Shown: positions 41,726 through 64,000, counted from the first letter of the stretch. The stretch: DNA of 64,000 nucleotides from a virus (IMGVR_UViG_3300045988_056908:65792-129791); one strand, 5' to 3'. Program-made: numbers and translations. The notes: generated from the sequence alone by a model not told the origin.

Positions 41726-42043
41726 AATACTAAAAATTTTTAATTTGTTAATACTGTGAGTTACTTTTGTTTTTGTTTTAGTTTTATATCAATATACAGG
41801 GGGGGACTAAAGGGGTTGTGGACCGCCATAACAGTCTCTCATATAATTTTCGGAATCTAGGTAACTTTCACCTGTATATAAATTCCGAATTTATTAAACA
41901 CCCAGGGGGCTATTTATATAAAGTACCTGTACCCATTTACGGATAACTAAATGAAATATGTATAATATTAGAATTAGAATTTTTTAACTTTGTATTTAAC
42001 TTTTCAGAAGGTATTGTTGTATATAACTAAAAAAGAAACAATT

Positions 42044-42445
42044 ATGATTACAGACTTAGAAACATTACTAAATTAGGACGAGTTTAAGAATCTCGTTGAT
42101 GCAATTAATAAGAACTAGGAGTATTATCTATCAAGTAATGGTCTAACCATTAAAGCGGAATCTACAGATGATTCTTTATTCTTATTAATATCTTATGAAA
42201 GATAGAAAGAGGAAAGCTGTCTAGCTAATGAAGAAGTAGGCAAATTCCAGAAATACTTAGAATCTTTAGATGATGATTTATTTATAGATGTCTGTGAATA
42301 TCTAGGGGAGTCCGAACTGAATAAAATTCAAGAATGTTTGGAAAGTGGAAAATTGGAATCAGTAAGAGCCGGAATTACTAAATTCAGAATGGCATTATCT
42401 AATGTGGTAACTATGAAAATAGAACAACTGAAAGCATATGTATGA
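42044..42445 (+). CDS. hypothetical protein; needs 4 in-frame TAG codons read as sense
   Basis: MITDLETLLN(TAG)DEFKNLVDAINKN(TAG)EYYLSSNGLTIKAESTDDSLFLLISYER(TAG)KEESCLANEEVGKF(TAG)KYLESLDD... ends at TGA. 402 nt, in frame. Confidence 0.5.
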
Positions 42446-42578
42446 ACAAATAGCTCAAATAAGAATGCTTCTTGCTAATGTAAATGCAACTATGTAGGCT
42501 TTATTTCACGAAAACGAACAGTTAAGGAAAGAACTAGAGAAATTGGCAGCGGAGAATAAATCTCTAAAAGAGAAATAA
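42438..42578 (+). CDS. small coiled-coil protein (1 TAG read as sense)
   Basis: MYEQIAQIRMLLANVNATM(TAG)ALFHENEQLRKELEKLAAENKSLKEK. Confidence 0.35.
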
Positions 42579-42582
42579 ATAC

Positions 42583-42654
42583 TGCCCTATGGTGTAATGG
42601 TCAGCACAGATGACTCTAAATCATTTAGTCTGGGTTCGAATCCTAGTAGGGCAA
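42583..42654 (+). tRNA. amber suppressor tRNA, anticodon CUA, derived from tRNA-Gln (predicted to insert Gln at UAG)
   Basis: TGCCCTA TG GTGTAATGGTCAGCAC A GATGA CTCTAAA TCATT TAGT CTGGGTTCGAATCCTAG TAGGGCA A. Anticodon loop CTCTAAA gives CUA. The backbone (TGGTGTAATGGT..., CCTAGTAG...) is closely similar to tRNA-Gln(UUG) at 30390-30461. Confidence 0.8.
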
Positions 42655-42684
42655 CGCCAAAATTAATAGTTATGATAAATTTAA

Positions 42685-42921
42685 ATGAGAATTATGATAA
42701 ATTTAAATGAGAATTATGCTGTAACTCCAACAGGAGCTAAGACCCTTATTATTGAAGAGGGAGATGATTGGAATAAAGTTTGCGATAAGGTAGTTGGATG
42801 TAGATTTGATTACATATTTGTACCTCAAGAATTTGGGAATCAAGCCTGCTACTTTCTTCCACAAATAAGTATTCAAGGAAAGCAGATAGGTAAGATATGT
42901 ACTTATAAAGTAGTGAAATGA
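42685..42921 (+). CDS. hypothetical protein
   Basis: 78-aa ORF. Its start lies inside a 22-bp tandem duplication. Confidence 0.45.
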   Translation: MRIMINLNENYAVTPTGAKTLIIEEGDDWNKVCDKVVGCRFDYIFVPQEFGNQACYFLPQISIQGKQIGKICTYKVVK

Positions 42922-43232
42922 AACAGTGTGCAGTCGTATTGAATGGTAATGATGTTGTCAAAGTTTCTAATTTAAAAAGAAAGTATGACAAAATAATGAG
43001 TAATCCCAATATGAAAATATTGGAAGAGTGTGATAAGGAAATGCTAGATGAGAAATACAACTACTGGAATAGAACATTAAATAGAAATATAGAAGAGGAG
43101 AAAAATGAGGAAGCAAAACTCCATCATTTTAGGAATCCAAAAACAGGTTGCACTATAGCAAGTATCTATCCAGATTTAGAGGAATGTAAATCATATATAA
43201 AAGACTGGATGGATTATGTTAAACTTGACTGA
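42918..43232 (+). CDS. hypothetical protein
   Basis: 104-aa ORF. Confidence 0.5.
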   Translation: MKQCAVVLNGNDVVKVSNLKRKYDKIMSNPNMKILEECDKEMLDEKYNYWNRTLNRNIEEEKNEEAKLHHFRNPKTGCTIASIYPDLEECKSYIKDWMDYVKLD

Positions 43233-43395
43233 TAAATACAACGAACTAACTAAGCCAAATTTAAAAGAGTTATCTGAAACTATACTCTTAGCAGCAGAAT
43301 CTTTAATTGAGATTGTTGCAGAAGAAGGAAAACAAAATGAACAATGGTTTCTAGATTACCTAGATGAATTAAATAGACTAAGTGTGATATATTAA
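43216..43395 (+). CDS. small hypothetical protein
   Basis: MLNLTDKYNELTKPNLKELSETILLAAESLIEIVAEEGKQNEQWFLDYLDELNRLSVIY, 59 aa. Confidence 0.35.
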   Translation: MLNLTDKYNELTKPNLKELSETILLAAESLIEIVAEEGKQNEQWFLDYLDELNRLSVIY

Positions 43396-43397
43396 AT

Positions 43398-43613
43398 ATG
43401 ATAGACTTTAAAAAGACATTAACAAACTTACATAATGAATTTCCAGAATTTGACTTGGATACATTATTTAAAATACTAGATGCTATAGTAGAAACTTCTA
43501 CTCCTACAATAACCATCCCAAGTGGTATTAGACAACCATCAGATAAACCTTGGTGGGAGGATGGTATAAATAGAATCACTTGTACTTATGATACAAAGTA
43601 TAATGTTAAATAA
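43398..43613 (+). CDS. hypothetical protein
   Basis: 71-aa ORF. Confidence 0.45.
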   Translation: MIDFKKTLTNLHNEFPEFDLDTLFKILDAIVETSTPTITIPSGIRQPSDKPWWEDGINRITCTYDTKYNVK

Positions 43614-43644: not shown

Positions 43645-43658
43645 ATTTTATTATATAA

Positions 43659-43850
43659 TATAGTACCAATCAGTTCTCTCCATAACTCCTTTTTCTCTAA
43701 GCTATTTATTATCCAAATGATAATCTCCGTTTCTGAAATTCAATTCCTTTTTAGAATAATCCCAATAAAAATATCCTCTCCATCCAGGAAGTAAGAGAGT
43801 GCGACCTGTTGCCGCATAAAGAGTAGACTTATTATAATCCATATTACTTA
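43659..43850 (-). CDS. small hypothetical protein (1 TAG read as sense)
   Basis: MDYNKSTLYAATGRTLLLPGWRGYFYWDYSKKELNFRNGDYHLDNK(TAG)LREKGVMERTDWYYII. 192 nt, in frame. Confidence 0.4.
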
Positions 43851-43905
43851 TGATTAAATAATAATAGTAAATAAAGATAGATCTTAAGTATAAATTTTCT
43901 AATAT

Positions 43906-44247
43906 TCATCGCTTCTTAGTTTTAATAAATCCATAAGTTCCCTTCTTTAATCTAGTAGTAGGAATCCACCCATTATCTAGAATAGACCTATGCCCACTCG
44001 GTTTATGTATCTTAGCCCCATCTTCGTGTTTCCATTTAGAAGCATTTCTAGCAAAATTAGCTCGCTTCTTCTAAAGAGGGGTAGCGTTAGGATTGTTTAG
44101 TACGTGCTTAGCGTGTTCTTGTACAGATTCTCCTGCTGCCTTGGCAGATGCTGTAAATTTGCCTCTGTTCTTCTCTTTAATGTGGATGCCCGACCCATTT
44201 TTGAAAATTGGACACCCAAATGTTGTAATTTTCTTACTGTTAGACAT
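43906..44247 (-). CDS. hypothetical basic protein (1 TAG read as sense)
   Basis: MSNSKKITTFGCPIFKNGSGIHIKEKNRGKFTASAKAAGESVQEHAKHVLNNPNATPL(TAG)KKRANFARNASKWKHEDGAKIHKPSGHRSILDNGWIPTTRLKKGTYGFIKTKKR. 342 nt, in frame. Confidence 0.5.
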
Positions 44248-44361: not shown

Positions 44362-45276
44362 ATGGACAAAAGTAAAATTACAAAACAAAATGGGAACATA
44401 GCTTTTGAGGAAGAAGCTCATATTTATTATGATGTTACAAAGCCAGAACAGAAGTTTATATCTGTAACGACTTTAATTCATTCTTTCACCCAACCATTTG
44501 ATAAGGAGTTCTGGTCAGCATATAAAGCACTAGAGAAACTCTTACCTAAAGAAGATTGGGCTATAGAAAAAAAGTCTTTGTTGAACACTAAGAAATTTGA
44601 TAAAGTTCTACTTGAACTTCATAACATTACAGAAGACGAGTTTAATAAAGAGCAACAAGCTATCTTAGATGCTTGGGATTTAGAGAATAGAAACTCATGC
44701 GAGAGGGGAACTAAAATCCATGCAGATTTGGAAAACTCTTTCTATAAAAAGAAACAGAACATAGACCTTAGTAAATATCAAATAGGTGGCAAGTTCGAGT
44801 GTATAAAAGACCACAATGAATTAGATTTAGAGAATGGTGTATATCCTGAGTATTTAATATCTAGAGTATCGGATGATGGAAAGCTCAGAATAGCAGGACA
44901 GATTGACTTATTAGTTAAAAGGGGAAATAAGATAATTATAGGAGACTGGAAGACCAATAAGAAAATAGAAACTAAGAGTTTCTTCAATTCTAAAACCAAA
45001 ACTTCTGTTAAGATGAAATATCCTCTAAATAATTTAGATGATGTTAATTACTGGCACTATACTTTACAATTAAGTACTTATGCTTGGATGATTCAAAAGA
45101 AAAATCCAGAGTTTGAAATAGAGGATTTGGTTTTGGTACATTTCGACCATAATGACAATATGACAGTATATCATTTACCATATCTAAAAGATGAGGTTAT
45201 AAAAATGCTAGCCTTCTATAAGAAGGAATCTATATTGGCAGAAAATAAAAGAAAACGTCAACGTATTGAATATTAA
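44362..45276 (+). CDS. PD-(D/E)XK nuclease superfamily protein (YqaJ/Cas4-like exonuclease fold)
   Basis: GQIDLLVKRGNKIIIGDWKTNKK fits the D...(D/E)xK core. 304 aa. No TAG. Confidence 0.6.
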   Translation: MDKSKITKQNGNIAFEEEAHIYYDVTKPEQKFISVTTLIHSFTQPFDKEFWSAYKALEKLLPKEDWAIEKKSLLNTKKFDKVLLELHNITEDEFNKEQQAILDAWDLENRNSCERGTKIHADLENSFYKKKQNIDLSKYQIGGKFECIKDHNELDLENGVYPEYLISRVSDDGKLRIAGQIDLLVKRGNKIIIGDWKTNKKIETKSFFNSKTKTSVKMKYPLNNLDDVNYWHYTLQLSTYAWMIQKKNPEFEIEDLVLVHFDHNDNMTVYHLPYLKDEVIKMLAFYKKESILAENKRKRQRIEY

Positions 45277-45278
45277 TT

Positions 45279-45494
45279 ATGACACTAGAGGAAATAGAAG
45301 AAAGATTTGAGATATGTAGACGCTGCCCAATATGTGACCAAGATAATGGATTATGTAATGGGCATTTGTATCTAAATCCAAAGAATAATGATATAAGTAT
45401 AAGCCCTAAAGAAGGGTATATAAAGGGATGTGGATGTTTACTAGAGAAGAAGATTCCAAACGAAAAGAAACATTGTCCAGCAGGGAAATGGTAA
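45279..45494 (+). CDS. small Cys-rich Zn-binding protein
   Basis: CRRCPICDQDNGLCNGH...GCGCLLEKKIPNEKKHCPAGKW. Confidence 0.5.
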   Translation: MTLEEIEERFEICRRCPICDQDNGLCNGHLYLNPKNNDISISPKEGYIKGCGCLLEKKIPNEKKHCPAGKW

Positions 45495-45814
45495 TCTATG
45501 GAACTCCTATATTATATAAACCAGATAAGCATTATATACTTACTGTCCAAAATATAAATAGGGAAACAAAGGAGGAAGATATGATATGGAAATGGATTAA
45601 AGCAATATTTACTAAACCTTTAACAATATTGAAAAGTATATATTTCAATATATTCGGAATAAATCAAGATTTGACAACCAAAAGATTAAAAATTTGTGAC
45701 GCTTGTTCCCATAAATTACAAACATCTGTTGGGGAAGTGTGCGATGAATGTGGTTGTATATTAGAGAATAAAACAAGAATTGAAGATGAACATTGTGATT
45801 TATGTAAATGGTAA
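45488..45814 (+). CDS. small Cys-rich protein, paralogue of 45279-45494 (start uncertain)
   Basis: C-terminus ICDACSHKLQTSVGEVCDECGCILENKTRIEDEHCDLCKW parallels the preceding gene. Confidence 0.45.
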   Translation: MVIYGTPILYKPDKHYILTVQNINRETKEEDMIWKWIKAIFTKPLTILKSIYFNIFGINQDLTTKRLKICDACSHKLQTSVGEVCDECGCILENKTRIEDEHCDLCKW

Positions 45815-45822
45815 AATGAATT

Positions 45823-46425
45823 ATGGAAACTTTAAGAACAGAATTAAACAGTAACGAAAAACTAGCACTATCATTAACTGGAATGGAAGGTACGGGAGAA
45901 CATTTTATTTTAAATGGAGAAGCTGCAGACCAAACATTATTAAGAGAAAAACAAGAGAAGTTTAATACCTCAGTAGATGAGTTAGAAGATAAATTCTCTA
46001 AACATAATCAGGCACTAGAGGATTACGCTAAATCATTATCTAACGATATGAATGGAGTTGAAATTATGCCGATGTATGGGTATGCATTAATTAAACCCTT
46101 TGAACAAAACCCATTCCAAAAAATAAAAACTACTAAAAGCGGTCTTATTACTGATTTAGGTGGATTTACTCCTACTTATAAATCTAATGAGACTGGAGAA
46201 ATCGAAGAAGAACAACAATTTATTAAAGTAGGAACTGTGATAGAAGTAGGACACAAGTGTGAGTTCTTGAAGCCTGGAGATATTGTATTTTATACAATAG
46301 CTAGTGAATGTATGGTTCCATTCTATAAACTAGGATTTGTAGTAGTTAATGAGAATAGAATCATGGCTGTAGTTAATGAGAAACTAACTGAAAGAAGAGA
46401 CGAATTGAAGCATGGAAACAATTGA
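45823..46425 (+). CDS. GroES-like co-chaperonin domain protein with N-terminal extension
   Basis: C-terminal half IMPMYGYALIKPFE...SGLI...LKPGDIVFY...RIMAVV parallels GroES IRPLHDRVIVK...GGIVL...VKVGDIVIF...DILAIV. Confidence 0.5.
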   Translation: METLRTELNSNEKLALSLTGMEGTGEHFILNGEAADQTLLREKQEKFNTSVDELEDKFSKHNQALEDYAKSLSNDMNGVEIMPMYGYALIKPFEQNPFQKIKTTKSGLITDLGGFTPTYKSNETGEIEEEQQFIKVGTVIEVGHKCEFLKPGDIVFYTIASECMVPFYKLGFVVVNENRIMAVVNEKLTERRDELKHGNN

Positions 46426-46635
46426 TGAAAAAGTTTATTTTAAGCCTGGGGATTGTGTTACTTTACGGTAGTGTAAAGTAATGCACTCTCCAGTTATGCT
46501 TGTTCTAAGAAGAGAAGCAGCTTTATTTAAAGATAACCAAGGATTACGAGGACTAAGATGTAGATGGTTTACTGATTCTGGATTAATGCAGGAAGCAGTA
46601 TTTAATACAAAGGATTTAATTAAAGTAGAAGAGTA

Positions 46636-47208
46636 ATGGCTAATTAGGAAGAATTACAGAAGGCATTCATGGCATACTTGATACAAGATGCCCAAGCACA
46701 AGGAATACAATTACAATCAGAGCAAGATTTATAGGCTTACGCTGAGTAGCTTGGAGAAGATGGAATCAAAGCCAAGTATCAAGAATTTATGTAGAAGATG
46801 CAAGGCGGAGTTATGGCTAGACTTGGAGCTAAACTAGAATACTATAAAAAATTAAAAGGAGTATGCCCAGAAGGAGAGGAACTTGTTTATTTTAAACAGG
46901 GAGGAAGAATCTGCAAAGCTTGCCAAAAAGCATAGAAAGGAACTAAGGTTACTAAGAAAGCTAATGAAGTTGACAAGTTCAAAGCTGGAAGAGCTTAGTA
47001 TAAAAAGGATATGAAATCTGCAAAGGATGAAGCGTCCAGAGATTCCGTATCAATTAATAAATATAATGACCAGGAGGTTATGGCGAACAGGGGACACAAG
47101 GGAAATTTCAAAAATGGAAAATGGGTTCCAGATAGAACAAAGTATGCTAAGAAGGATGCTTGTGGTTCTAAAATGAAAGTAAGTAAATGCGGTTCTAAAA
47201 TGAAATAA
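46636..47208 (+). CDS. hypothetical basic protein; about 8 in-frame TAG codons read as sense
   Basis: MAN(TAG)EEL(TAG)KAFMAYLI(TAG)DA(TAG)AQGIQLQSEQDL(TAG)AYAE(TAG)LGEDG... ends ...CGSKMKVSKCGSKMK then TAA. 573 nt, in frame. Confidence 0.55.
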
Positions 47209-47238
47209 AAAGATTAAAGATGTTAATGTTAATGATTG

Positions 47239-47805
47239 ATGAGTATGAATGTATTTAATTATAACACTTTAACTAAATAGTTAGAGATAAATGAACCAGA
47301 GCTTCTTCTAGTTAAAGAGTTTAAGGCTTTGATACAGAGAGATAAATCTGTTGACAAGGAACGAGTAACTAGAGAATTGTCTTACATTTATCTAGCTATT
47401 GATTGGAAGAGTCCTTATAGCCAATATTCAGAACATGAAAGACATGATGAAGCTATTAGTGACTCTGGACTATCTGAATCCGAATTTAATGACCCGTTAT
47501 TCAGGGAAGCCTGTAGAAAATACCGAGCATTGTAGGATTCTAACAAATCAATAAAACTTCTAGAAGCAGCTAAAAGAGCAGCTGACTAGTTTATTGATTA
47601 TTTTGATACTATAGTAGATTTAAATGAACGTGATAATAATGGCAAACCCGTCTTTCAAGCTGAAAAGGTAATGAAAGAAATGGCTACTCTTCATAAAGTT
47701 CATGAAGAATTAGTAACACTAGAAGAGCAGGTTAAGAAAGAGCTTACAGAACAATCTACTGTAAGAGGTGGAGCTACAGACGGCTTTGACCCAGGAGACT
47801 TTTAA
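47239..47805 (+). CDS. hypothetical protein (4 TAG read as sense)
   Basis: MSMNVFNYNTLTK(TAG)LEINEPELLLVKEFKALIQRDKSVDKERV... ends ...GFDPGDF then TAA. In frame. Confidence 0.55.
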
Positions 47806-47807
47806 TT

Positions 47808-50168
47808 ATGCCTAGAAAGAAAAAAATATTACCTGAAGAAATCTAGAATATAGTAGATTAGGTAAGAGAGAAAGAACAAAAAGAGGATGCCAAAGAAGCT
47901 AGAGAACTAGTATAGAAGATAAGAGAGGAAAGAGGCAAAAATGCTGATTATTGGGATGTAAAAAGAGGAGATAAGATAGAGGTATTTGACCCTACTTTAT
48001 CTTATGAAATAACTGGATATAGACCAATAGATGAAACACATGGTCTTGACTTCGACCCAGATTGGTTTACTGAGACCAGAGAAGTGTATAGAAAAACTGG
48101 AAAGTATTGTCCATATCTAAAAGATAGTAAGAGATATAATGAGTTTTGGAAGGAATAGTATAGAAGATGTAAATATGGAATGACTGTTAATGGTTATACA
48201 ATTACTGGAGATAACTATTTCTTCCTAAACTTCTACTAGCTTCCTATTATTGATGATAACAAGGCATCTGGAGAAGGAACAAGTAGTGACTTTCCTATAT
48301 TTTTCGCATCTCATTATATGTTCTTTCATTATCTATAGATGGCTAGAGTTCTGCATAAACACGCAGCTCTTATGAAAGCTCGTTCTATTGGATTCTCTGA
48401 AATAAATGCATCCTTATCTGCAAGAATGTATTCAGTAATCAGAAGAAGCAGAGTAATGATTACTTGTTTTAATGATACCTTCCTTAAAGGTACTTTTAGT
48501 AAGTTTGATAATGCTTTAACATTCTTGAATACTTGTACAGGAGGAGGATTCTTCAAACTACGTTTGATTGACCAAGACTTAAGAAAGAAGTCTGGTAAAC
48601 AGATTAAGGTAAACGGACAGTTTGAGGATGTTGGATTTAAATCAGAAGTAGTTGGAATAAATGGAGCTAAGGCATCTAATATTCGTGGAGACCGTGTTGA
48701 CCTATTAATATATGATGAAGCGGGGTCTTGGCCCGGACTAGATACTGCTGTAGTGCAGGGACAAGAGCTTTGTGAAGTTCAGGGTAAACCTCGTGGAACA
48801 ATGTTATTTGGAGGTACTGGTGGTGATATGGGTGCTCCATTAGCAGGTCTTAAGAAGATATATTACAATCCAAAAGCTTACAAGGTTCTTCCATTTAGAC
48901 ACAATTATACACAGGACGGAACTACTATTGAAAGTGGGTTCTTCATTCCATATTTTGTCTAGTCTCTAAATTCAGAATACATGGACCATAGAGGTGTATG
49001 TAATACAGTAGAATATAAAAAGTATCTATAGGAAGAGCGCGACAATTTATTAGCAGTTCCAGACGACTATCTAAAGAAGTGTGCCGAACGATGTTGGAAT
49101 GCAGAAGAAGCATTTAATCTTGAAGGTGTTAACAAGTTCAACAAGATTCTTATTGCGGACCAGTTAGCTAATATAAGACTTAAGAAAATAGGACCAAGAC
49201 CAGAATCTGGATACATAGACTACTTCTATAAAAATAATAAACACACCTAGGATAATATAGATGGTTTTAAATGGATTCCTAATATTAACGGAAAAGTAAA
49301 AATACTTGAACATCCTGTATGGTCTGATTTGTATAAAGAGTAGATGGATAAACTTAGATAGGAAGCTGAGGAAAGGGGAGAAGAATTTGAATCTCCAGCG
49401 TACAAAGAAATGCATGATTTATATGTTGCAGGAATAGACGGTATTGATATAGGAGCTAGTCAAACTTCAAAAGAAACAAGAGATCCTTCTGATTTCTGTA
49501 TAACTATAAAAAGAAGAGCATTTGGTCTAAACGAACCGTAGTATGTTGCTATGTATAAAGACAGACCTAATGACATTAGAGAAGCCTATAAAATAGCTAT
49601 GTGTTTAGCTAGATACTATAATTGTAGAATAAACATAGAAGCTACCCGTGTAGGTATGATTACCTGGGCTAGAGAAAAGGGTTGTTTAAACTACTTTATG
49701 AAAAGACCTAGAGCTACTCTAACAGACGTCAAGAATGGAACTACTAAATAGTACGGAACACCCGCTACCAAAACTATTATAGAACAACATACTGATTTGA
49801 CGGCAGCCTTTATTGAGGATTTCTGTCATACTATATGGTTTGAAGAAATGTTAGACCAATTTACTGGATATAATGATGAGAATAAAGGTAAATTCGATAT
49901 TGTAGCCGCTGTGGGAATGACAGAATTGGCAGACTAGGAATTGTCAGGAAGATAGCCAGTGCTTGTTGAAAAAGAAGTTGAACAATTCCAAGATTATGGT
50001 TATTATTACGACGAGAGAGGAATCAAAAGATTTGGGGTTATACCAACTTCTAAGACTTTTGAAACTAACATACAAAAAAATGAATACGATGACCCATACA
50101 GAATTGAAACAAGTGATTCTAGGTTATATGAGAGACTTGTACAAAATGGAATACGTAGGTGGGCTTGA
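47808..50168 (+). CDS. terL: terminase large subunit (TerL); about 25 in-frame TAG codons read as sense
   Basis: Single frame from ATG 47808 to TGA 50168 (786 aa) once TAG is read as sense. ATPase region KQIKVNGQFEDVGF...RVDLLIYDEAGSW. Nuclease region DFCITIKRR...IAMCLARYYNCRINIEATRVGMITWAREKG. Listed fragments 48339.., 49551.., and 49959..50168 are all in this frame. Confidence 0.75.
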
Positions 50169-53273: not shown

Positions 53274-53283
53274 TTATTATAAT

Positions 53284-55757: not shown

Positions 55758-57625
55758 TGGCATTTAAATATACAGGTGATGCTACATTAGGCGTTGCTTT
55801 AACCGTAGAAACTCCTAAACCTCTTGATAATAGAACAGTAGTCGATAATTTAGACGAATTATATTCTATTCCGGAGAAATATGCTTATCAAGGCATGACC
55901 GTTTCAAATATAGATAACGGAAATATTTATATGCTAGTAGATAAGTCTAAGATTAAATACAAAGAAGGTTGGAAAGCTTCTTATGAATCTATTTAGATAA
56001 TCACCTGTACAGAGGCTGAATATAAGGAATGGTCTGAAAATACCACAGAAGATTTTAAACCTATAGACGAAAATAAAACATATCTTCATGCAGAAACATA
56101 TTATTATATATATGAAGACAGCCTAGATGATGATTAGTTTTATTTATCAGCAGAATGGGGTAAAAAGATAGAGGAATAGTTGAAATAGAAAGCTCTAAAT
56201 ACTACTGTCGTACAGATTAGAACGGATTTAGACTAGACAATCTCTAACCTTTCCAAGTATGCTACTCTTGAAGAGTTAACTGAGAATTATGCCCCTAAAA
56301 CTGATCTAGATTTAGAGGACCCAGAATCCTTGTTATCTAAAGCCTTATCTAACCATTATACTAAGGAAGAAACTGATGACATATTTGTTACCAAAGAAAG
56401 TCTTAGAGGAGAAGGAATGGAAGGAGATGATTTTGTCTTTGTTACAAAGAAATAGTATGACGAAGACCAATAGGCTATTCAAGATGAGCTAGATAAGACT
56501 TTAAAGGTAGATGGAGATGGTTCCCTAGAAAGTATTACTGTAGGATAGATAAAGTCTCCAGTAGTAGAAGGAGAGGATTAGCTAGTAGTAGATGTTAAAT
56601 CTGATGGGTTGTTTGTTGGAGAAGACCAATTCGCAATGATGTCAGATGTTCCTAATCTGGTTACATTAACTGAAGAGGAATATTTAAAACTAGTAGAAGA
56701 GGAGGCTATAGAACCTGACACATATTACTATGTGTATGATGTAACAAATGATGCTAAAGTTTATATTACTAAGGAGTACTTAGATCAAAATTACCATACT
56801 ACACATCAGTATTAGTCCTGGGTTGCCACTAATTATTATTCAAAGACATAGATTGATGAAATTGTTTCTGGTTTATAGAAACTAGGAAGCTACGTTACTA
56901 CAGAAGATATTAAAGCATACTACACTAGCTCGTAGGTAGATGAAAAGTTTCTTACAAAAGAAAATGCTCAATCTACATACGCCACTCAATAGTCGTTAAC
57001 TGACCTTTCCGATTAGATAGCAGAGGAGTATGTGACAAAAGAAAGTTTGAGAGGAGATTCTCCCGAAACCGGTGATGACGATTTTATATTTGTTACCTAG
57101 AAGAAATATTAGGAAGATTAGGATGCCGCTTCTAAGGAATTTAGCACAGAGCTTCTAAAATCAACCTCTATAGAAACTTCTGATATTACTATTTAGAAAA
57201 TTGTCGAAAAAGAAGTACAATAGGGAACAACTGGAGAAAGTTCAGAAGATGAAACAACTGAACAGACTATTGAAAGTTCTGTTAAACTTACTACAGAAGA
57301 CAATAGATTATTAGCATCTGGAAAGCAAGTTGCTCTTACAGAAGAGGTTCCTAAATTGGTATGTCTTCCACAAACAGATTATGATGACTTAGTTGAAAAT
57401 AATAAGACAGAGAACGATACGTACTATTGTACTTATGGAGAAAAAGATATATAGGATACAGGATATGTCAGAAGTGAATATCTGACAGAACGCTACTATA
57501 CAAAAGCTGAGGTGGAAGAATTAATAAAGGCTGCTGTAGACGAATTGTAGAAGAAAATAGATGCAATATAGCCTGGTTCTGGTAACGTACAGGTAGATGG
57601 AGAAAATAAACAATTAATATTTTAA
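55757..57625 (+). CDS. tail-fibre-like protein with internal sequence repeats (TAG recoded)
   Basis: 622-aa frame. Repeated blocks VTKESLRGEGMEGDDFVFVTKK(TAG)YDED(TAG)(TAG)A and VTKESLRGDSPETGDDDFIFVT(TAG)KKY(TAG)ED(TAG)DA. Incorporates listed ORFs 55757..55996 and 56609..56815. Confidence 0.55.
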
Positions 57626-57630
57626 ATAGT

Positions 57631-57840
57631 ATGGGAACAATTTGGGTTGAAGGGTAGTTTAAGAACTCAGCAAAACCAGTAAAAGTTGTTGGAGGAAATG
57701 TAGGAGGATCTGGAATAGACCCAGATACATTAAAGAACTACGCTACCAAGGCTGAACTGTAGAAAGCTGTTGAAGACTTAACTGCCTCCATAGAAGGAAT
57801 AGATCATAATGTAGAAGAAGAAACTTTAATAATACAATAA
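57631..57840 (+). CDS. small virion-associated hypothetical protein (TAG recoded)
   Basis: MGTIWVEG(TAG)FKNSAKPVKVVGGNVGGSGIDPDTLKNYATKAEL(TAG)KAVEDL... 69 aa. Confidence 0.4.
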
Positions 57841-57841: not shown

Positions 57842-59662
57842 ATGGCAGCTATCAAATCTATAAAGGTTAGAGAAACCGTATATGACTTAAAGGCTACCTA
57901 TGATGGCTCTGGAAATGTTATAGATTAGACATATGCAAAATCTAGTGCCATTCCAACTAAAGTGTCCTAGTTATAGAATGATGAAAATTATTTAAAGGAA
58001 CACTAGGATATAAGTGGTTTAGCTACTAAACCGGAGTTGGAAAGTAAGGTAGATAAAGAATTAGGAAAAGGACTTTCTGAAGCTAATTACACAGAAACTG
58101 AAAAACAGAAACTTAGTGGTATTGCAGATAATGCAAATAATTATGTACACCCAACTACTTCTGGAAATAAACACATACCTGCTGGAGGAGCACTTGGATA
58201 GATTTTAACCTTTTCTGAAGATGGGACTGCATAGTGGGCAGATACTAGTACTAAGTTAAAGAAACAATTTGATGCTCTTAATACTGCTTGGGAAGAATTA
58301 CAAAAAGAGCAATAGAGTCTAAGCAAACAAGTCACAGAGTTAAGCAGTAACGTAGACTTATACTCTTACGGAGTAGAATGGGATATTACCGTATTTTCTC
58401 CTATCCTTACTAGAATAGGAAACCCACTGTTACATAAATCCCTTCCTATTTAGTCTGCTTACAGAGGATGTGTAGCAAATAACGGTGCGGTAAATTACTA
58501 TTTATATCCAGACGATTGGGCTTACAAAGAAGATGGAAATACTCCTTCTGTGCTTGATGGAACTGATGGAACTGTAAGAGTCCACACTCCTAAATTTTAT
58601 GGTAAATCAGGCTCTAATGGAAATAAAAGATGGGTTAGAATTTCTCTAGTAAAGCTTGATGATTCATGGATAGAAATACCAGAACTATTAATTGACGCAT
58701 ATAGAAATACCGTTGATAATACTGTGTCAGCAACCCCTAAAGCTGTGTCTGTGGTCAATACTACAGAAGCATTTAGAGGTGGTGGAAATAGAGCACAATT
58801 CGATGAGTATCTAACTACTGAACTTGATACCAAAGATGCTTTTAGAAGCGATTTAGGAAAACCTAGAACTAATGTTTCTAGAACTAATATGAGAACTTAT
58901 GCTACAAATGCAGGTTCTGAATTATTATGCTATGAATATTATAAATGGATATTCTACTGGAACTATGTAATAGAATATGCTAACTTTAACTCTCAGGCTG
59001 CCTATAATGCCGAGCTTACTTCTGATGGTTATCGTCAAGGAGGACTTGGTCCTGGAGTTACAGACTGGAGTAACTCTGATACAAGTTGGTCTGAATATAA
59101 TGGAACCTATCCTATTACTCCATGTGGTTATTGTAATGATATTGGTAACTTCACTGGAATCAAAGATTTAGTTATTCCAGAGTGTACTGCAACAAACGGA
59201 ACAGGTACAGTAGCGACTAAGACATTTAAAGTTCCAAGATGGAGAGGTTTTGATAATCCATTTGGAGATATTTGGACAAACCTAGATGGAGTAGTTATTC
59301 AAAGAACTGCGGCAAATGAAATCAGTAGTGTATATACTACCACAAACAAGGAAGAGTTTACTGACGTAATTGGCAATAAGACCGTAGCAGGATACGAGGT
59401 AGCGCAAGATGGATACATTAAAGAGCTTGACTTGGGAGAGACAGCAGAGATTATACCATCTTCTTGTACTGGAGCCTCAGCTACAACTTATATGTGTGAC
59501 TACCACTCTTGCAACGCTACCTCTACAGCGCTTCGCACGCTGCTGGTGGGCGGCTACGCGTCTGATGGCGGCAATGCGGGTCTCGGCTATTTCTTTTCTA
59601 ACCGTGTCGTCGGCTTTGCCTCTTCCACTGTCGGGTTCAGGACTCTAAACAGAGTATCTTAA
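57842..59662 (+). CDS. tail fibre or receptor-binding protein; primary DGR target with C-terminal variable region (TAG recoded)
   Basis: 606-aa frame incorporating listed ORF 58550..59662. C-terminal CLec-like segment CDYHSCNATSTALRTLLVGGYASDGGNAGLGYFFSNRVVGFASSTVGFRTLNRVS encoded by GC-rich VR1. Confidence 0.7.
59540..59637 (+). repeat. DGR variable repeat 1 (VR1)
   Basis: Aligns to TR 59740-59837 with about 17 mismatches at TR adenines and about 3 elsewhere. Confidence 0.75.
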
Positions 59663-59739: not shown

Positions 59740-59837
59740 CTGCTAGTAGGCAGCAACGCGAATAATGGCAGCAATGCAGGTCTCAGCTATTTCAATTCTA
59801 ACAATGGCGTCGGCTTTGCCGATTCCATTGTCGAGTT
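59740..59837 (+). repeat. DGR template repeat (TR)
   Basis: Non-coding A-rich copy of VR1 and VR2, located between the target gene and the RT. Followed by hairpin CTTGCC TCTA GGCAAG (59893-59910). Confidence 0.75.
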
Positions 59838-59978
59838 ATTATATATTTAGAACAATTTATTTTATTTTTTTTTAGTTTGCTAAGTAATATCCTTGCCTCT
59901 AGGCAAAAGACAACGTAGTGTTAAATGAAGGGTGTTAGTAGGTTAAATCTCGAAAGCTTCCGATGAAATATATAAAAA

Positions 59979-61253
59979 TTGAAACGTGTAGGATATTTGC
60001 ACGAACGAGTGTATGATTTGAAAAACATCGAATTAGCTGATGATAAGGCTAGAAGAAATAAATCAATTCGATGTGGTATTAAGTAGCATGATAAGAATAG
60101 ATTAGAAGAAAATAAGGAATTATCAGACAAATTAAAATAGCTAATCTATTAGACTTCTGAATATAGTACATTTATAATATATGAGCCTAAAGAAAGATTA
60201 ATCTTTAGACTTCCATATTACCCTGATAGAATCACTCATCATGCTATAATGAATATTATGGAACCTATCTGGACCAGCATTTTTATAGATTAGACATATT
60301 CCTCTATAAGAAATAGAGGGACTCATAAGGTAGAGTATGATTTATTCAAGGTATTGTAGAAATACCCAGATGAAACTAAATACTGCCTAAAAATGGATAT
60401 AAGAAAATTTTATCCATCTATAACACATGACATCCTGTATGAGATGTTGTAGAAGAAAATAAAGGATAAGAAACTGTTAAGTCTATTGAAGGAAATAATA
60501 TATTCAGCCAAAGGAGTTCCTATTGGAAACTATCTATCATAGTTCTTTGCAAATTTATATCTGACATATTTTGACCACTGGATAAAAGAGGAGTTAAAAT
60601 GTAAGTACTACTTTCGATATGCTGACGATATTGTGATTCTTGGTAATGACAAGAATTATTTGAGAAATGTATTAGTATCTATAAAACTGTATTTGAAACA
60701 AGTTCTTAATTTAGAATTAAAACCTAACTACTAGATATTTCCAGTAGAAAGTAGAGGAGTAGATTTTGTAGGCTACAAATTTTATCACACTTACGTTCTA
60801 TTAAGAAAATCTATAAAAATGAGAATGTTTAGGCTTATAAATCTATATAAGCAAAATAAGATTGATAAAGAAGAATTGGAAAGAAGAATGAGATCTTATT
60901 TCGGCTGGATGAAATTCTGTAATTCTAAGAATTTGTTGAAAAAGATAGAAACTTTGACTGGTTTGAAGTTCTCAAATTGGAATGGAAAGGAAGTCAATAT
61001 ATCTAAGTTTTATAATAAGTATATTCATATCATAGAGGTGGTTGATTATCATAGCCATTTCAGAGTGCACTTTATGTATAACAACAAACCCTATTATTTT
61101 AAAAGCAAGAATAAGAAATTATATTATTCTTTGTTTAGATACAAATTTCCTATAAATTTTAAAGTAACACCTCATGTTAGAACCAAAGAGAATACAAATG
61201 AACGTTTGTCCTTAGGTAATTCAAAAACTTGGCAACGGTACTTATTATTATAA
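59979..61253 (+). CDS. DGR reverse transcriptase (TAG recoded; start TTG 59979 or GTG 60009)
   Basis: RT motifs in one frame: YEPKERLIFRLPYYPDRITHHAIMNIMEPIW (motifs 1-2), LKMDIRKFYPSIT (A), KGVPIGNYLS(TAG)FFANLYL (B), RYADDIVILG (C, YADD), SYFGWMKFCNS. Several in-frame TAG. Ends TAA 61251-61253. Confidence 0.75.
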
Positions 61254-61563
61254 TTATGATATAAGAGAAGTTGAGGCTGAAGTTGAAATACTAGATGAGA
61301 AAGACAGTACTAAATTTGAAACTTAGTACAATTTCATCTAGGTTTTACTTAATGGACAACCTAATTATAAGGATTGCGTAAGAGCTATTATTAGAAGTTT
61401 TATAACCATAGATGAAGAATTTGATTTAATCAACTCGTATAATAGTTATACAAAAAACCTTAGCACAGATTCTTCTATCATAACAGATTATCAAGAATAT
61501 CTTACTAAATTAATGGATATTAAAGACAAAGTCAAAAAAGATTTTGGACTTGTGAATAAATAA
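61198..61563 (+). CDS. hypothetical acidic protein overlapping the RT 3' end (TAG recoded)
   Basis: MNVCP(TAG)VIQKLGNGTYYYNYDIREVEAEVEILDEKD... 121 aa. Frame +1 relative to the RT. Confidence 0.35.
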
Positions 61564-61610
61564 TTTAAAATTGTTAAGTATTATACTTTACAATATTAAA
61601 AATCTAATAA

Positions 61611-62105
61611 ATGGAAAATTACAAAAATTTAAATTTCTCCGCTGAACAAATAAACCAAAAGCTAGCTTGGGTTGGAGATAAGTCTAAGTTAGCAACTACA
61701 TTATAGGAGACTCCTGTAAACTAGATTATGTTTACTAAAGACTAGAAAACTTTAAAAACTATCATAGACGCAAATAACTAGATAATTACCGTAGAGACTA
61801 ATGATATGATAACAGAACCTGGGTCTAAATTGGAGTCTTGGAATGTATATGTGGACCACTTACTCTGCATAAACTCTATATCTTGTGAAGGAACAATGTG
61901 TTCTCATAATTATGTTGAGTTAGGTAATGGCTCTAAAAAGGATATCAATTTAAATGGTTTATACTTATTATACACAGATTGTTCTAAGAGATTAGAATCT
62001 GACATTGGGTATGTTTGGCAATATCTCCCATTGACTGGAGTTATCAAGGCAGGGTCTACTTTTGTTATTAGGGAAAGCAAACTAATACAATTAAAGGTAG
62101 TATGA
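61611..62105 (+). CDS. hypothetical virion protein (TAG recoded)
   Basis: MENYKNLNFSAEQIN(TAG)KLAWVGDK... incorporates listed ORF 61806..62105. 164 aa. Confidence 0.5.
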
Positions 62106-64000
62106 TAAAAGTAGACTCTTATGATATGGAGTGGGATATAGAATTTAAATAGAATAAAGCTGCCTTCTATTTATGTGCTGGAGATTCTTTTAAACCCTTA
62201 TTAGAATCTAATAGCCTTGGCAATCCTTGGGAAGCTAATTTAATTGGGTATATTGATTCTTGTGGATTTGGAGCAGAAGCACCAGCAGAGGGGAATTCTC
62301 CTTTGCTGGTTAATGATAATTGGAATGATATTATCTTTGTTAGATGGTTTATGTTTGAAACGGCTAAACAAGGTACTAAAGCTTTTGCTAAAAGAAAAAC
62401 TAAAGATTTATGGACTTATATAGATTTAACTAAGAATACTACTAAAGCAGGAAATAGTATATAGTATTATTATAGTGACAATATAAAGTTAAAATATGCT
62501 CTTAAAGCTTCATATCTAGGTAAAGATTTCTTTACTATATCTACATTATTTAGATAGGATATTCCTAATTATGTAAATTTAACTTTTGGAAGATAGGCAA
62601 CCGACTCTGGAAGTGGTGCAACTAGATGCTTCAACTGGATTTCTGTTGGATATTATGATGAATATGTGGAGATAAGAAAATAGGGAGAAGAGTGGTCAAA
62701 ACATTATTCTATAATTGAAAAAGATAGTAGTAATACTGCTAACATTAATAAGTTTATAAATTATTATAAAAGATATAAATGGATTGCTCCAGATGGGACT
62801 TTTGTTACTACTCATAAATGTATTATAGATAAATTAACAGCTGGAACTTATGAATATCGAATTAGAAGAGATAATTCTAATTATTCAAGTAAAATTTATA
62901 TTTTTAAAGTATTAGGGGATTCAGAAGTAACTACTTTTAGTTATATTTAGACTTCTGATTAGCAGGGATTTAATTGGCAAGAATATCAAGCTTGGAAAAA
63001 ATCTTCTTATATGATAAGTAAAGAACAAAATATTGAATTTACTATCAATACAGGAGATATTACTCAAAATGGTAATAGAGTTAGCGAATGGTTAGATTAT
63101 TATGATGGTAGAGAATACTTAAATAATCTCCCAGAGATGTTTACTGTTGGAAATAATGATTTGTGTGGAAAAGATTTCTCAGAACTAACAGATGGAGAGG
63201 TAAATACTTCAAAATATAATCATATCAATGTTTTAAGATATTTTACTTTTGAAATGGATCCAGATAATCCATGTTAGGTTACTTGGGAGGAAAATACTTA
63301 TCCTATTTATTCTACATATTCATTTAATTATGGTAAATATCATTTTGTATCTTTAAATTCTGAATATGCTCAAGCTTCTAGTAAAATGTATAAAAATAAA
63401 GATATTGATTCTGATAAAGGAGATATTACATTTGCTCAAGCTGTAAATGCGGCTATTGAAGAATGGTTTATAAAAGATTTAAAATCATGGAAACAAACTG
63501 AAGAATTTCCAACTGGCTGCGAAAAATGTATTGTTTACACTCACGATGCCCCATTTTCAATAGTTACCTATGATTTTATGAATACTAGTACTACTGCTAG
63601 AGCCGGTTCTAAATTAAATACTATAAATAATAATGGAACTTATAGATTTTCTAGGCTCTTTAAAAAGATGGGAATTAGATTAGTAATGGCTGGTCATAAA
63701 CATACTTATGGAATAAGCAAACCTATCTATGATGCACCTATTGAGTATCTAGAAGGTAATAAGGCTAGTTCTGCAGTAGACATATTGTCAGGAGAAATTA
63801 CTACAGATATGTCTAGAAAACCTGTTATTTAGGTGCTACGACAAGATTAGGTATAGGTAAATAATTTTGCTAGATACGAAGTTGTAGAAAATATTACAGC
63901 TCCGACCTATGTAACTTGCTAGGCAACTGGATATAAATTAATCTCTAATAAAGAATAGCCATCTGGGGATGCTTATAGAATACCTTGGTTGCTGGCTTAC
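62102..64000 (+). CDS. large structural protein with calcineurin-like metallophosphoesterase motifs (TAG recoded; runs off window edge)
   Basis: Frame from ATG 62102 (ATGA overlap). Motifs TGDITQNG (GDxxDRG-like), VGNNDL (GNHD/E-like), MAGHKHTYG (GHxH). Incorporates listed ORFs 63011..63277 and 63386..63832. Confidence 0.5.

What the first reader, a model, noticed from the sequence alone, without database searches (positions are those of the whole stretch)
42000..64000. Amber (TAG) codon reassignment in the late structural module
From about 42000 onwards every large plus-strand gene is split into short standard-code ORFs by TAG only. TAA and TGA still end genes. Reading TAG as sense restores a 786-aa TerL, a 736-aa portal, 500-620-aa fibre proteins, and an RT. 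Positions such as M(TAG)..., AT(TAG)K..., L(TAG)KAY fit Gln-like usage. The minus-strand replication block (1-14000, apart from the homing endonucleases) has no in-frame TAG. This matches the stop-codon-recoded late regions known from crAss-like and Lak phages, where recoding is thought to control the lysis/late program. The break-point in this window (about 42000, including genes upstream of the suppressor) and the exceptions are informative.
Basis: partly seen in the sequence, partly recalled or inferred. Interest (0 to 1): 0.8.

Follow-up and report, generated by a model that had tools for sequence, protein, structure and literature searches.

The report
Amber-to-glutamine recoded phage late genes
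This stretch of a large crAss-like gut phage writes its packaging and tail genes with the stop codon TAG used as a glutamine codon and carries two matching suppressor tRNAs; this is real, but it is a well-described phenomenon and near-identical genomes are already in public databases.

Summary
From 46.4 kb to the window end, all 14 plus-strand genes carry in-frame TAG: 143 TAG in 5,491 codons, 55% of all Gln codons. There is no in-frame TAA or TGA, and every complete gene ends in TAA or TGA. TAG-as-sense raises long-ORF coverage there from 0.10-0.51 to 0.92-1.0; TGA-as-sense does not.

In TAG-free relatives, 51% of residues opposite the window's TAG codons are Gln. Gln beats every other amino acid by more than 200 nats.

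Two tRNA(CUA) genes sit at the strand switch (40087-40157 minus, 42583-42655 plus). Both are glutamine-type: one has a CUG-anticodon orthologue in a close relative, and the other resembles the phage's tRNA-Gln(UUG).

The minus-strand block 1-14.9 kb has 0 TAG in 4,006 codons.

Corrections:
- Dense recoding starts at about 46.4 kb, not 42 kb.
- Plus-strand genes at 42685-43613 and 44362-46425 are TAG-free, mostly so in relatives too.
- The TAG-bearing homing endonucleases lie in the tRNA array (14.9-37.8 kb).
- The portal is 723 aa.

This is code-15 late-gene recoding as published for crAss-like phages. IMG/VR holds contigs 95-98% identical over the 22.4 kb compared. Side leads are a RAGATH-14 RNA, suppressor tRNA and hammerhead island, and anticodon polymorphism.

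The parts
1..14924 (-). Standard-code-compatible early block: DnaB-like helicase, SF2 helicase, NAMPT, PRTase, AAA ATPase, OmpA-like protein. 21 genes, 0 in-frame TAG in 4,006 codons, stops TAA or TGA only.
15423..37907 (-). tRNA array (ARAGORN tRNAs here) plus a tmRNA at 20325-20824, interleaved with TAG-free middle genes and free-standing homing endonucleases.
14893..15336 (-). GIY-YIG homing endonuclease with 3 in-frame TAG, an exception inside the otherwise TAG-free strand.
19642..20190 (-). HTH-containing ORF with a weak, sub-threshold HNH match (E 0.0088, 16.6 bits against a 21.4-bit cutoff), probably a homing endonuclease, with 5 in-frame TAG.
24177..24812 (-). GIY-YIG/NUMOD homing endonuclease with 3 in-frame TAG.
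37424..37810 (-). HNH_3 endonuclease with 2 in-frame TAG.
30389..30461 (-). Phage tRNA-Gln(UUG). It shares U1:A72, A73, the D-arm and the T-arm with supB.
40087..40157 (-). supA: tRNA(CUA) amber suppressor, 54.9 bits to the Rfam tRNA model. The orthologue in close relative L070 has anticodon CUG (Gln). Other relatives carry UUA.
40213..40404 (-). RAGATH-14 RNA (RF03145, 154 bits), 55 nt 5' of supA on the same strand. The same adjacency, at similarly short spacing, is seen in the relatives whose fetched DNA holds both elements.
39886..39946 (-). Hammerhead-ribozyme motif about 140 nt 3' of supA: stem I, CUGACGAG, stem II, CGAAAC, stem III, GUC.
42044..42445 (+). First plus-strand gene (133 aa) with 3 in-frame TAG, lying upstream of supB.
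42583..42655 (+). supB: tRNA(CUA) amber suppressor, 66.3 bits, Gln-like body. It is CUA wherever a tRNA was found at this position in relatives.
42685..43613 (+). Four small plus-strand genes with no TAG.
43651..44247 (-). Two small minus-strand genes (63 and 113 aa), each with one in-frame TAG that is kept in most homologues.
44362..46425 (+). Three TAG-free plus-strand genes (PD-(D/E)XK nuclease 304 aa, 126 aa, 200 aa). The nuclease and the 200-aa gene are TAG-free in 45/45 and 52/53 distinct homologues; the 126-aa gene in 27/35.
46412..47805 (+). First recoded late genes (74, 190 and 186 aa; 1, 6 and 3 TAG). This is the conserved code boundary.
47808..50168 (+). Large terminase, 786 aa, 15 TAG, ends in TGA.
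50366..52537 (+). Portal protein, 723 aa, 32 TAG, ends in TAA.
52539..57840 (+). Five recoded structural genes (244, 242, 529, 622 and 69 aa; 7, 2, 19, 23 and 2 TAG).
57842..59662 (+). Tail protein (phrog_5302), 606 aa, 8 TAG. The DGR variable repeat lies at 59540-59637.
59740..59837 (+). DGR template repeat, 81% identical to the variable repeat, with most mismatches at template adenines.
59979..61253 (+). Reverse transcriptase of the DGR (phrog_1423), 424 aa, 8 TAG.
61611..64000 (+). Two more recoded genes (164 aa with 4 TAG; more than 632 aa with 13 TAG, running off the window).

Best explanation
The window is part of a roughly 185-190 kb crAss-like gut phage, most likely the 'Zeta' group, that uses two coding regimes.

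Genes on the minus strand (replication, NAD salvage, the tRNA array) contain no TAG and stop with TAA or TGA. They can therefore be read by an unmodified standard-code host.

The packaging and structural genes from 46.4 kb onward use TAG as their majority glutamine codon. Two phage-encoded glutamine-type tRNAs with anticodon CUA sit at the divergent junction and GC-skew minimum. They insert Gln at UAG in competition with the host's release factor 1.

Every late gene has its first TAG within codons 4-80. No full-length late protein can therefore be made until enough suppressor tRNA has accumulated, which couples late-protein synthesis to suppressor expression.

Shown here: in-frame TAG confined to defined genes; TAG equals Gln by homology; presence, Gln-type ancestry and conservation of the tRNAs; a conserved code boundary.

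Inferred: charging by the host GlnRS, competition with RF1, the order of expression, and the regulatory or timing purpose.
For: - Coding density is rescued only by TAG-as-sense.
- 143 TAG against 119 CAA+CAG in 14 late genes, with no in-frame TAA or TGA, and stops at TAA or TGA.
- X-masked tblastn against nine TAG-free relatives gave Gln at 151 of 309 aligned cells. Gln is favoured by more than 200 nats over Glu, His and Lys.
- The sum of TAG and Gln in TerL is roughly conserved across 80 relatives.
- In codon alignments of close relatives, CAA is the codon type found in most columns that contain a TAG (72 columns, against 62 for GAA and 44 for CAG).
- supA's orthologue in L070 is tRNA-Gln(CUG), differing mainly at anticodon position 36. 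supB shares its D-arm, T-arm, U1:A72 and A73 with the phage tRNA-Gln(UUG).
- None of the TAG-free relatives scanned shows a tRNA(CUA) within up to 10 kb upstream of TerL.
- The early block has 0 TAG in 4,006 codons although out-of-frame TAG is common.
- The code boundary at about 46.4 kb is conserved in dozens of distinct relatives.
- The pattern matches published descriptions: Yutin 2021 (PMC7886860), Borges 2021 preprint (10.1101/2021.08.26.457843), and proteomic proof of TAG read as Gln in crAss-like phages (PMC9523058).
Against: - No expression, aminoacylation or proteomic data exist for this phage.
- The boundary between codes does not coincide with the strand switch. Seven plus-strand genes between 42.7 and 46.4 kb are TAG-free, while the first plus-strand gene (42044-42445), two small minus-strand genes (43651-44247) and four homing endonucleases in the 'early' strand carry TAG. 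A simple early/late split by strand is therefore too crude.
- No release factor or GlnRS gene lies in the window.
- Three minus-strand ORFs (17135-17485, 18016-18705, 27622-28257) might terminate at TAG, each with a backup TAA or TGA 5-31 codons downstream. TAG may therefore retain some stop function early.
- Zeta-group membership could not be tested directly, because no Zeta reference sequence was in the searchable collections.
Confidence: 0.88

Rival explanations
1. Recoding is real, but its role is not a late-gene timer. The suppressor is primarily an anti-host or anti-defence weapon that causes read-through of host TAG stops. Alternatively, TAG codons simply accumulated neutrally in genes translated after suppressor capture.
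For: Yutin 2021 (PMC7886860, Discussion) proposes the anti-defence reading. The phage carries a tmRNA gene, which could relate to ribosome stalling after read-through. The TAG share of Gln codons varies gene by gene from 0.33 to 0.73, with no obvious functional pattern in this window. The code boundary does not follow the strand switch.
Against: There are strictly zero TAG in 4,006 early codons, and TAG-free status is conserved for specific plus-strand genes across 45-53 distinct homologues. This indicates selection on which genes may carry TAG rather than drift. Every late gene has a TAG within its first 80 codons. The two roles are not mutually exclusive.
Confidence: 0.3
2. TAG encodes an amino acid other than glutamine, for example pyrrolysine as ARAGORN's label suggests, or Glu, Lys, Tyr, Ser or Leu.
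For: ARAGORN labels both tRNAs 'tRNA-Pyl', but that label rests on the anticodon only. Glu and Lys are the second and third most frequent residues opposite TAG.
Against: Gln accounts for 51% of residues opposite TAG, compared with 38% opposite canonical Gln codons. Gln is more than 200 nats better than any other residue. Both tRNAs have canonical D-loop and T-loop sequences and 55-66 bit tRNA scores. supA has a CUG (Gln) orthologue. None of the family matches obtained for window proteins was to a Pyl-pathway enzyme, though not every ORF was scanned.
Confidence: 0.02
3. The TAG-interrupted genes are pseudogenes, or artefacts of assembly or sequencing.
For: None beyond the naive table-11 view.
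Against: The same genes carry TAG at partly shared, partly different positions in more than 60 distinct relatives from independent samples. They never carry in-frame TAA or TGA. IMG/VR contigs 95-98% identical over the region compared show the same pattern.
Confidence: 0.01
4. The host itself reads TAG as Gln, so no phage-driven switch is needed.
For: The host is unknown. MAG labels for related contigs are scattered across phyla, probably through mis-binning.
Against: Strict avoidance of TAG in early genes would then be unexplained. The phage carries its own two suppressors. To my own knowledge, no bacterial lineage with TAG read as Gln has been described. Published recoded crAss-like phages are predicted to infect standard-code hosts (10.1101/2021.08.26.457843).
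Confidence: 0.03

Closest known systems
TAG-to-Gln (genetic code 15) recoding of late genes in crAss-like phages (Yutin et al. 2021, PMC7886860; Borges et al. preprint 10.1101/2021.08.26.457843; proteomic validation in Peters et al. 2022, PMC9523058)
   Same: In-frame TAG in TerL, portal and structural genes. Standard-code-compatible replication genes. Phage tRNA(CUA). Gln at TAG positions. TAA and TGA kept as stops. Different codes among close relatives. Suppressor origin by an anticodon point change in a tRNA-Gln. Recoded homing endonucleases sitting among early genes.
   Different: Nothing essential. Local details are two Gln-type suppressors on opposite strands at the junction, and a block of TAG-free genes (PD-(D/E)XK nuclease and others) on the late strand directly upstream of the recoded block.
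Zeta group of crAss-like phages (Yutin et al. 2021): 145-192 kb genomes, many tRNAs including suppressors, dense introns and inteins, branches using TAG, TGA or the standard code
   Same: Relatives' contigs are 180-192 kb. ARAGORN tRNA genes in the window. TerL inteins occur in close relatives (P0003, L070). There are many homing endonucleases. TAG-free and TAG-recoded relatives exist. Human gut sources.
   Different: Membership was not directly tested, because no Zeta reference sequence was available. The signature RNAP, MCP and IHF genes lie outside the window.
Theta (HDV-like) ribozymes adjacent to phage suppressor tRNAs (Kienbeck et al. 2024, PMC10879173)
   Same: A small self-cleaving-ribozyme motif and a structured RNA flank a suppressor tRNA of a recoded gut phage.
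   Different: Here the ribozyme motif is a hammerhead, not HDV-like. It lies about 140 nt downstream rather than abutting the tRNA 3' end, and at up to about 2 kb in some relatives. The upstream element is RAGATH-14. No cleavage or processing role was tested.
Lak and other recoded gut phage clades (Garnet, Amethyst, Jade, Sapphire, Agate, Topaz; Borges et al.)
   Same: Stop-codon recoding is concentrated in structural and lysis modules, with suppressor tRNAs.
   Different: These are different lineages. Some of them carry RF1/RF2 or aaRS 'code change modules', which were not seen in this window.

Membership tests
Code-15 (TAG=Gln) recoded phage with late-gene-restricted recoding | Conserved genes (TerL, portal) are interrupted in frame by TAG only | tested here: met
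   TerL has 15 TAG and the portal has 32. Neither has in-frame TAA or TGA.
Code-15 (TAG=Gln) recoded phage with late-gene-restricted recoding | TAG positions align to Gln in standard-code homologues | tested here: met
   151 of 309 aligned cells are Gln. Gln is best by more than 200 nats. Per-site TerL table.
Code-15 (TAG=Gln) recoded phage with late-gene-restricted recoding | Phage-encoded suppressor tRNA with anticodon CUA | tested here: met
   Two genes, 40087-40157(-) and 42583-42655(+), found by ARAGORN and by Rfam at 54.9 and 66.3 bits.
Code-15 (TAG=Gln) recoded phage with late-gene-restricted recoding | The suppressor is of glutamine identity (charged with Gln) | tested here: inconclusive
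   Ancestry is Gln-type: a CUG orthologue of supA, and similarity of supB to tRNA-Gln(UUG), including U1:A72 and A73. Actual aminoacylation cannot be tested with these tools.
Code-15 (TAG=Gln) recoded phage with late-gene-restricted recoding | Early and replication genes are free of in-frame TAG | tested here: met
   0 TAG in 4,006 codons for genes in 1-14.9 kb.
Code-15 (TAG=Gln) recoded phage with late-gene-restricted recoding | Gln is incorporated at UAG in the proteins actually made | not testable with these tools
   Needs proteomics, as was done for other crAss-like phages in PMC9523058.
crAss-like phages (Crassvirales sensu lato), Zeta group | TerL and portal are homologous to the crAss-like families | tested here: met
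   TerL hits phrog_6681 at 1e-61 and the portal hits phrog_6547 at 9e-48. tblastn hits TerL of cr109_1, cr52_1, Azobacteroides phage ProJPt-Bp1 and others at 26-29% identity.
crAss-like phages (Crassvirales sensu lato), Zeta group | Genome of 145-192 kb with many tRNAs, introns and inteins | tested here: met
   Contigs of relatives with 75-93% identical TerL are 180-195 kb. ARAGORN tRNA genes in the window. TerL inteins occur in P0003 and L070. Several homing endonucleases are present. The genome size of this exact phage is inferred from relatives.
crAss-like phages (Crassvirales sensu lato), Zeta group | Clusters with Zeta reference genomes in the TerL tree; crAss-type MCP, IHF and giant RNAP genes present | not tested
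   No Zeta reference sequence was retrievable, and these genes are outside the window.
Pyrrolysine decoding (tRNA-Pyl) | Atypical tRNA-Pyl architecture and pylS/pylBCD genes | tested here: not met
   Both tRNAs have standard D-loop and T-loop sequences and score well on the general tRNA model. None of the family matches obtained for window proteins was to a Pyl-pathway enzyme.
Diversity-generating retroelement | RT gene plus a template repeat and variable repeat pair whose mismatches lie at template adenines, with the variable repeat at the 3' end of a target gene | tested here: met
   RT hits phrog_1423 at 1e-112. VR 59540-59637 and TR 59740-59837 are 81% identical, with most differences at TR adenines, and the VR lies at the C-terminus of tail gene 57842-59662.

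The most novel reading that the evidence does not exclude
The 2.1-kb gene-free island at the early/late junction (38920-41032) may be a dedicated 'code-switch' RNA module. A RAGATH-14 RNA of unknown function lies a short distance (55 nt here) upstream of the Gln-type suppressor supA on the same strand, here and in the relatives whose fetched DNA holds both, and would be co-transcribed with it. A hammerhead ribozyme lies downstream. These RNAs would control maturation or timing of the suppressor, by analogy with theta ribozymes. The supA anticodon flips between CUA, UUA and CUG among genomes at or near species level. This would let populations tune the read-through specificity of this second tRNA while supB stays fixed as CUA.
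Probability: 0.12. Interest if true: 0.6.

Novelty: already known. Interest (0 to 1): 0.25.

Why it matters
For annotation it matters a great deal. Under table 11 the whole packaging and structural module of this phage dissolves into fragments, whereas table 15 recovers TerL, portal, tail proteins and a DGR.

Biologically it is one more clean example of a published phenomenon. It offers a well-resolved and conserved code boundary, two Gln-derived suppressors at the junction, and recoded homing endonucleases.

The parts that could add knowledge are peripheral:
- a function-less Rfam motif (RAGATH-14) is tied to a suppressor tRNA;
- a hammerhead motif lies nearby;
- the supA anticodon is naturally polymorphic (CUA, UUA, CUG) at or near species level.

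Tried and rejected
- A megablast of TerL plus portal DNA against INPHARED phages found nothing. Only protein-level hits at 45% identity or less exist there.
- A GTDB genome scan for host clues returned related contigs binned into MAGs of many unrelated phyla, including archaea. I read this as mis-binning, so no host inference was possible.
- The sigma-70 promoter scan was at chance level (34 found, 34.4 expected). A Bacteroidetes-type promoter pattern gave only 3 hits, none at the code boundary, so there is no promoter evidence for a late operon start.
- A 14-base RAGATH-14 pattern scan of IMG/VR mostly returned chance matches. nhmmer filtering showed that every strong RAGATH-14 hit came from large contigs (about 105-270 kb), several of them the same IMG/VR contigs already fetched as TerL relatives. 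There is therefore no independent context for its link to tRNAs.
- The literature search for RAGATH-14 found no paper.
- I considered that UUA-anticodon supA alleles might signal TAA recoding in relatives. This was rejected: their late genes contain only TAG in frame.
- I considered that the 88-90-nt tRNA(CUA) of distant relatives might be a Ser, Leu or Tyr-type suppressor. This was rejected: it is a supB orthologue with a hairpin inserted in the variable region.
- The ORF 40223-40633(-) with 7 TAG is not a gene. It overlaps the RAGATH-14 RNA.
- TAG positions within late genes are not significantly non-uniform (KS p=0.18). They sit somewhat more 5' than CAA/CAG (mean relative position 0.47 against 0.58, p=0.004).

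Full report
**What is in the sequence**

The window has 35% G+C. I counted stop-to-stop ORFs of at least 100 aa in 4-kb bins. Under table 11 they cover 0.93-0.94 of the first 12 kb but only 0.10-0.51 of the bins from 44 to 64 kb. Treating TAG as sense restores coverage there to 0.92-1.00. Treating TGA as sense does not (0.10-0.64).

With TAG read through, the plus strand from 46.4 kb on holds an uninterrupted series of genes. A codon-usage-based gene call under 'TAG = sense' gave 82 genes.
- The 14 plus-strand genes from 46412 to the window end contain 143 in-frame TAG in 5,491 codons. They contain 86 CAA and 33 CAG, so TAG supplies 55% of putative Gln codons.
- None has in-frame TAA or TGA.
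- They end in TAA (11) or TGA (2), and one runs off the window.
- The first TAG lies at codon 4-80 in every one of them.

**What the genes are**

PHROG and Pfam scans identify the following:
- a 786-aa large terminase (47808-50168, phrog_6681, 1e-61);
- a 723-aa portal (50366-52537, phrog_6547);
- a 606-aa tail protein (57842-59662, phrog_5302);
- a reverse transcriptase (59979-61253, phrog_1423, 1e-112).

The RT belongs to a diversity-generating retroelement. A 98-nt variable repeat at the 3' end of the tail gene (59540-59637) and a template repeat (59740-59837) differ mostly at template adenines.

The minus strand carries a DnaB-like helicase, an SF2 helicase, NAMPT, a PRTase, AAA ATPases, an OmpA-like protein, an SPFH protein and a radical-SAM protein. 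It also carries 26 of the 27 ARAGORN-called tRNA genes and a tmRNA.

**TAG means glutamine**

TerL has more than 2,400 database homologues. The closest are full-length 775-788-aa proteins from 180-195 kb contigs. Their genes do not translate to the stored protein under table 11, so they were called with TAG as sense.

IMG/VR yielded 80 related loci with DNA. Across them, recoded TerL genes have 5-24 TAG and 9-29 canonical Gln codons. Nine TAG-free relatives have 27-37 Gln, so the sum is roughly conserved.

In a codon alignment of 75 distinct TerL genes, the window's 15 TAG sites are dominated by TAG or Gln in the other sequences. In TAG-free sequences Gln is 4.5-fold enriched at TAG columns. 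CAA is the codon type found in the most TAG-containing columns.

To avoid circularity I masked TAG as X in all 14 late proteins. I then aligned them by tblastn to the nine TAG-free loci. Of 309 aligned cells, 151 were Gln, 26 Glu and 22 Lys. Gln has the highest BLOSUM62 sum (753 half-bits, compared with 370 for Glu). Under empirical substitution profiles from the same alignments, Gln is more than 200 nats better than any other residue. Gln is more frequent opposite TAG (0.51) than opposite canonical Gln codons (0.38).

**The decoding tRNAs**

ARAGORN and Rfam find two tRNAs with anticodon CUA. I call them supA (40087-40157, minus strand, 54.9 bits) and supB (42583-42655, plus strand, 66.3 bits). 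ARAGORN's 'Pyl' label rests on the anticodon only.

supB shares its acceptor end (U1:A72, A73), D-arm and T-arm with the phage's tRNA-Gln(UUG) at 30389-30461. The orthologue of supA in the close relative L070 differs by a few bases and has anticodon CUG, that is tRNA-Gln. Both suppressors are therefore Gln-derived.

Among relatives, supB is CUA wherever a tRNA was found at that position. No TAG-free relative scanned has a tRNA(CUA) within up to 10 kb upstream of TerL; some of those flanks are shorter.

The two genes flank the divergent junction at 41726-42043. GC skew changes sign there.

**Where the code changes, and the exceptions**

Genes from 1 to 14.9 kb have 0 TAG in 4,006 codons, although out-of-frame TAG runs at 29-38 per 1,000.

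In the 14.9-42 kb minus-strand region the well-supported TAG-bearing genes are homing-endonuclease genes lying between tRNA genes:
- GIY-YIG at 14893-15336 (3 TAG);
- GIY-YIG at 24177-24812 (3 TAG);
- an HTH ORF with a weak, sub-threshold HNH match at 19642-20190 (5 TAG);
- HNH_3 at 37424-37810 (2 TAG).

On the plus strand the first gene (42044-42445) has 3 TAG and lies upstream of supB. The next four small genes (42685-43613) have none. The same holds for the PD-(D/E)XK nuclease (44362-45276) and the genes at 45434-45814 and 45823-46425. Distinct homologues of these last three have no in-frame stops in 45/45, 27/35 and 52/53 cases. Homologues of the genes from 46412 on carry TAG.

Dense recoding therefore begins at about 46.4 kb, not 42 kb, and that boundary is conserved. 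Two small minus-strand genes (43651-43842 and 43906-44247) keep an in-frame TAG in most homologues.

No gene needs TAG as its stop. Three minus-strand ORFs could end at TAG, each with a backup TAA or TGA 5-31 codons downstream.

**How it most likely works**

Shown: two coding regimes, TAG read as Gln, and two Gln-type suppressors at the junction.

Inferred from the published model: early genes are translated with the host's standard code. The phage suppressors then accumulate, are charged by the host GlnRS and compete with RF1. Only then can full-length terminase, portal, tail proteins, the DGR RT and the homing endonucleases be made.

Borges et al. (10.1101/2021.08.26.457843) propose exactly this. 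They also describe a recoded intron endonuclease inside an early gene. Yutin et al. (PMC7886860) describe late-gene TAG or TGA recoding in crAss-like phages. They describe the 145-192 kb, tRNA-, intron- and intein-rich Zeta group with mixed codes. They also describe suppressor birth by a single anticodon change in tRNA-Gln. Peters et al. (PMC9523058) proved TAG read as Gln by proteomics in crAss-like phages.

An alternative or additional role, disruption of host translation or defence by read-through, is not excluded.

**Comparison and novelty**

TerL is 26-29% identical to TerL of classified crAss-like phages. It is 42-45% identical to two unannotated gut phage contigs in GenBank.

IMG/VR contains contigs 95-98% identical in nucleotide sequence over about 20 of the 22.4 kb compared (L008, L010, L029, L030, L007). 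The public protein catalogue already holds code-15 translations of these genes. Both the phenomenon and this lineage are therefore already known. Zeta-group membership is likely but could not be tested directly.

**Side observations**

- supA lies in a 2.1-kb gene-free island. A RAGATH-14 RNA (RF03145, 154 bits) sits 55 nt upstream of it on the same strand. The same adjacency, at similarly short spacing, recurs in the relatives whose fetched DNA holds both elements.
- About 140 nt downstream of supA is a canonical hammerhead core with three stems. It scores below the Rfam threshold, but its minimum-free-energy fold is the three-way junction (z = -3.6), and the pattern is expected 0.02 times by chance. 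It is present in eight relatives.
- The supA anticodon is polymorphic among close relatives, with CUA, UUA, CUG and damaged loops. There is no TAA recoding in the UUA carriers.
- These observations recall the theta-ribozyme and suppressor-tRNA association (PMC10879173). They are untested leads.

**Verdict**

The finding is a textbook case of a published phenomenon. Interest is low for the main claim and modest for the peripheral RNA island.

Noticed in passing
window 40213-40404 (-), with 40087-40157 (-): RAGATH-14 RNA (Rfam RF03145, 154 bits, function unknown) lies 55 nt 5' of the suppressor tRNA supA on the same strand. The same pairing, at similarly short spacing, occurs in the relatives whose fetched DNA holds both, whatever the anticodon allele. 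No paper in the searchable library mentions RAGATH-14.
   Followed up: partly
window 39886-39946 (-): A hammerhead-ribozyme motif (AAUCCU, CUGACGAG, stem II, CGAAAC, stem III, GUC, AGGAUU) lies about 140 nt 3' of supA. Rfam gives only a sub-threshold RAGATH-1-hammerhead hit (30.8 bits). The minimum-free-energy fold is the three-way junction (z = -3.6), and the core pattern is expected 0.02 times by chance. The core pattern occurs in 8 of the fetched loci, on the supA strand and at variable distance from supA in the four checked.
   Followed up: partly
supA orthologues in L006-L077 (e.g. L070:116-186, L006:707-777, L012:2174-2243, L031:2092-2164): The anticodon of the supA tRNA differs among genomes at or near species level: CUA in most, UUA ('ochre') in 7, CUG (Gln) in 1, a 1-nt-deleted loop in 2 and an odd loop in 1. 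There are three distinct D-arm alleles. supB is always CUA. UUA carriers have no in-frame TAA in late genes.
   Followed up: partly
window 20325-20824 (-): A phage-encoded tmRNA sits inside the tRNA array (Rfam RF00023, 76 bits, E about 1e-27). The hit spans 500 nt against a 374-position model, which suggests insertions. ARAGORN did not call it.
   Followed up: no
window 57842-61253 (+): A complete diversity-generating retroelement lies inside the recoded block. The variable repeat (59540-59637) is at the C-terminus of the 606-aa tail protein. The template repeat is at 59740-59837 and the RT at 59979-61253 (8 in-frame TAG).
   Followed up: partly
window 26831-28242 (-): An AAA ATPase appears split. 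The N-terminal part with Walker A (27526-28242) runs into a TAG at codon 207 followed by unlikely sequence. The C-terminal part sits in another frame (26831-27571) and overlaps it. This could be a frameshift, a small intron, or a TAG stop plus a restart.
   Followed up: no
L034:103-192, L036:303-391, L037:2218-2307, L075:1195-1282: More distant recoded relatives (TerL about 75% identical) carry an 88-90-nt tRNA(CUA). It is a supB orthologue with a hairpin of about 16 nt inserted in the variable region, so a Gln-type body with a long extra arm.
   Followed up: partly
P0003; L070:10001-13525; L047:10001-12681: TerL of close relatives carries insertions that are absent from the window's TerL. P0003 has an intein (Hint and homing-endonuclease Pfam domains). 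L070 and L047 have interrupted TerL genes.
   Followed up: no
window 40000-44000: GC skew flips from about -0.15/-0.20 to +0.16/+0.23 at the divergent junction that holds both suppressor tRNAs. This fits a strand switch and possibly a replication origin.
   Followed up: no
L086-L111 (GTDB genome contigs): Whole or partial genomes of this phage lineage are deposited as parts of 'MAGs' labelled Clostridium, Bacteroides, Acholeplasmataceae, Gastranaerophilales, Methanobacteriaceae and others. One 186-kb contig is labelled Bacteroides sp. This is probably mis-binning of phage contigs.
   Followed up: no
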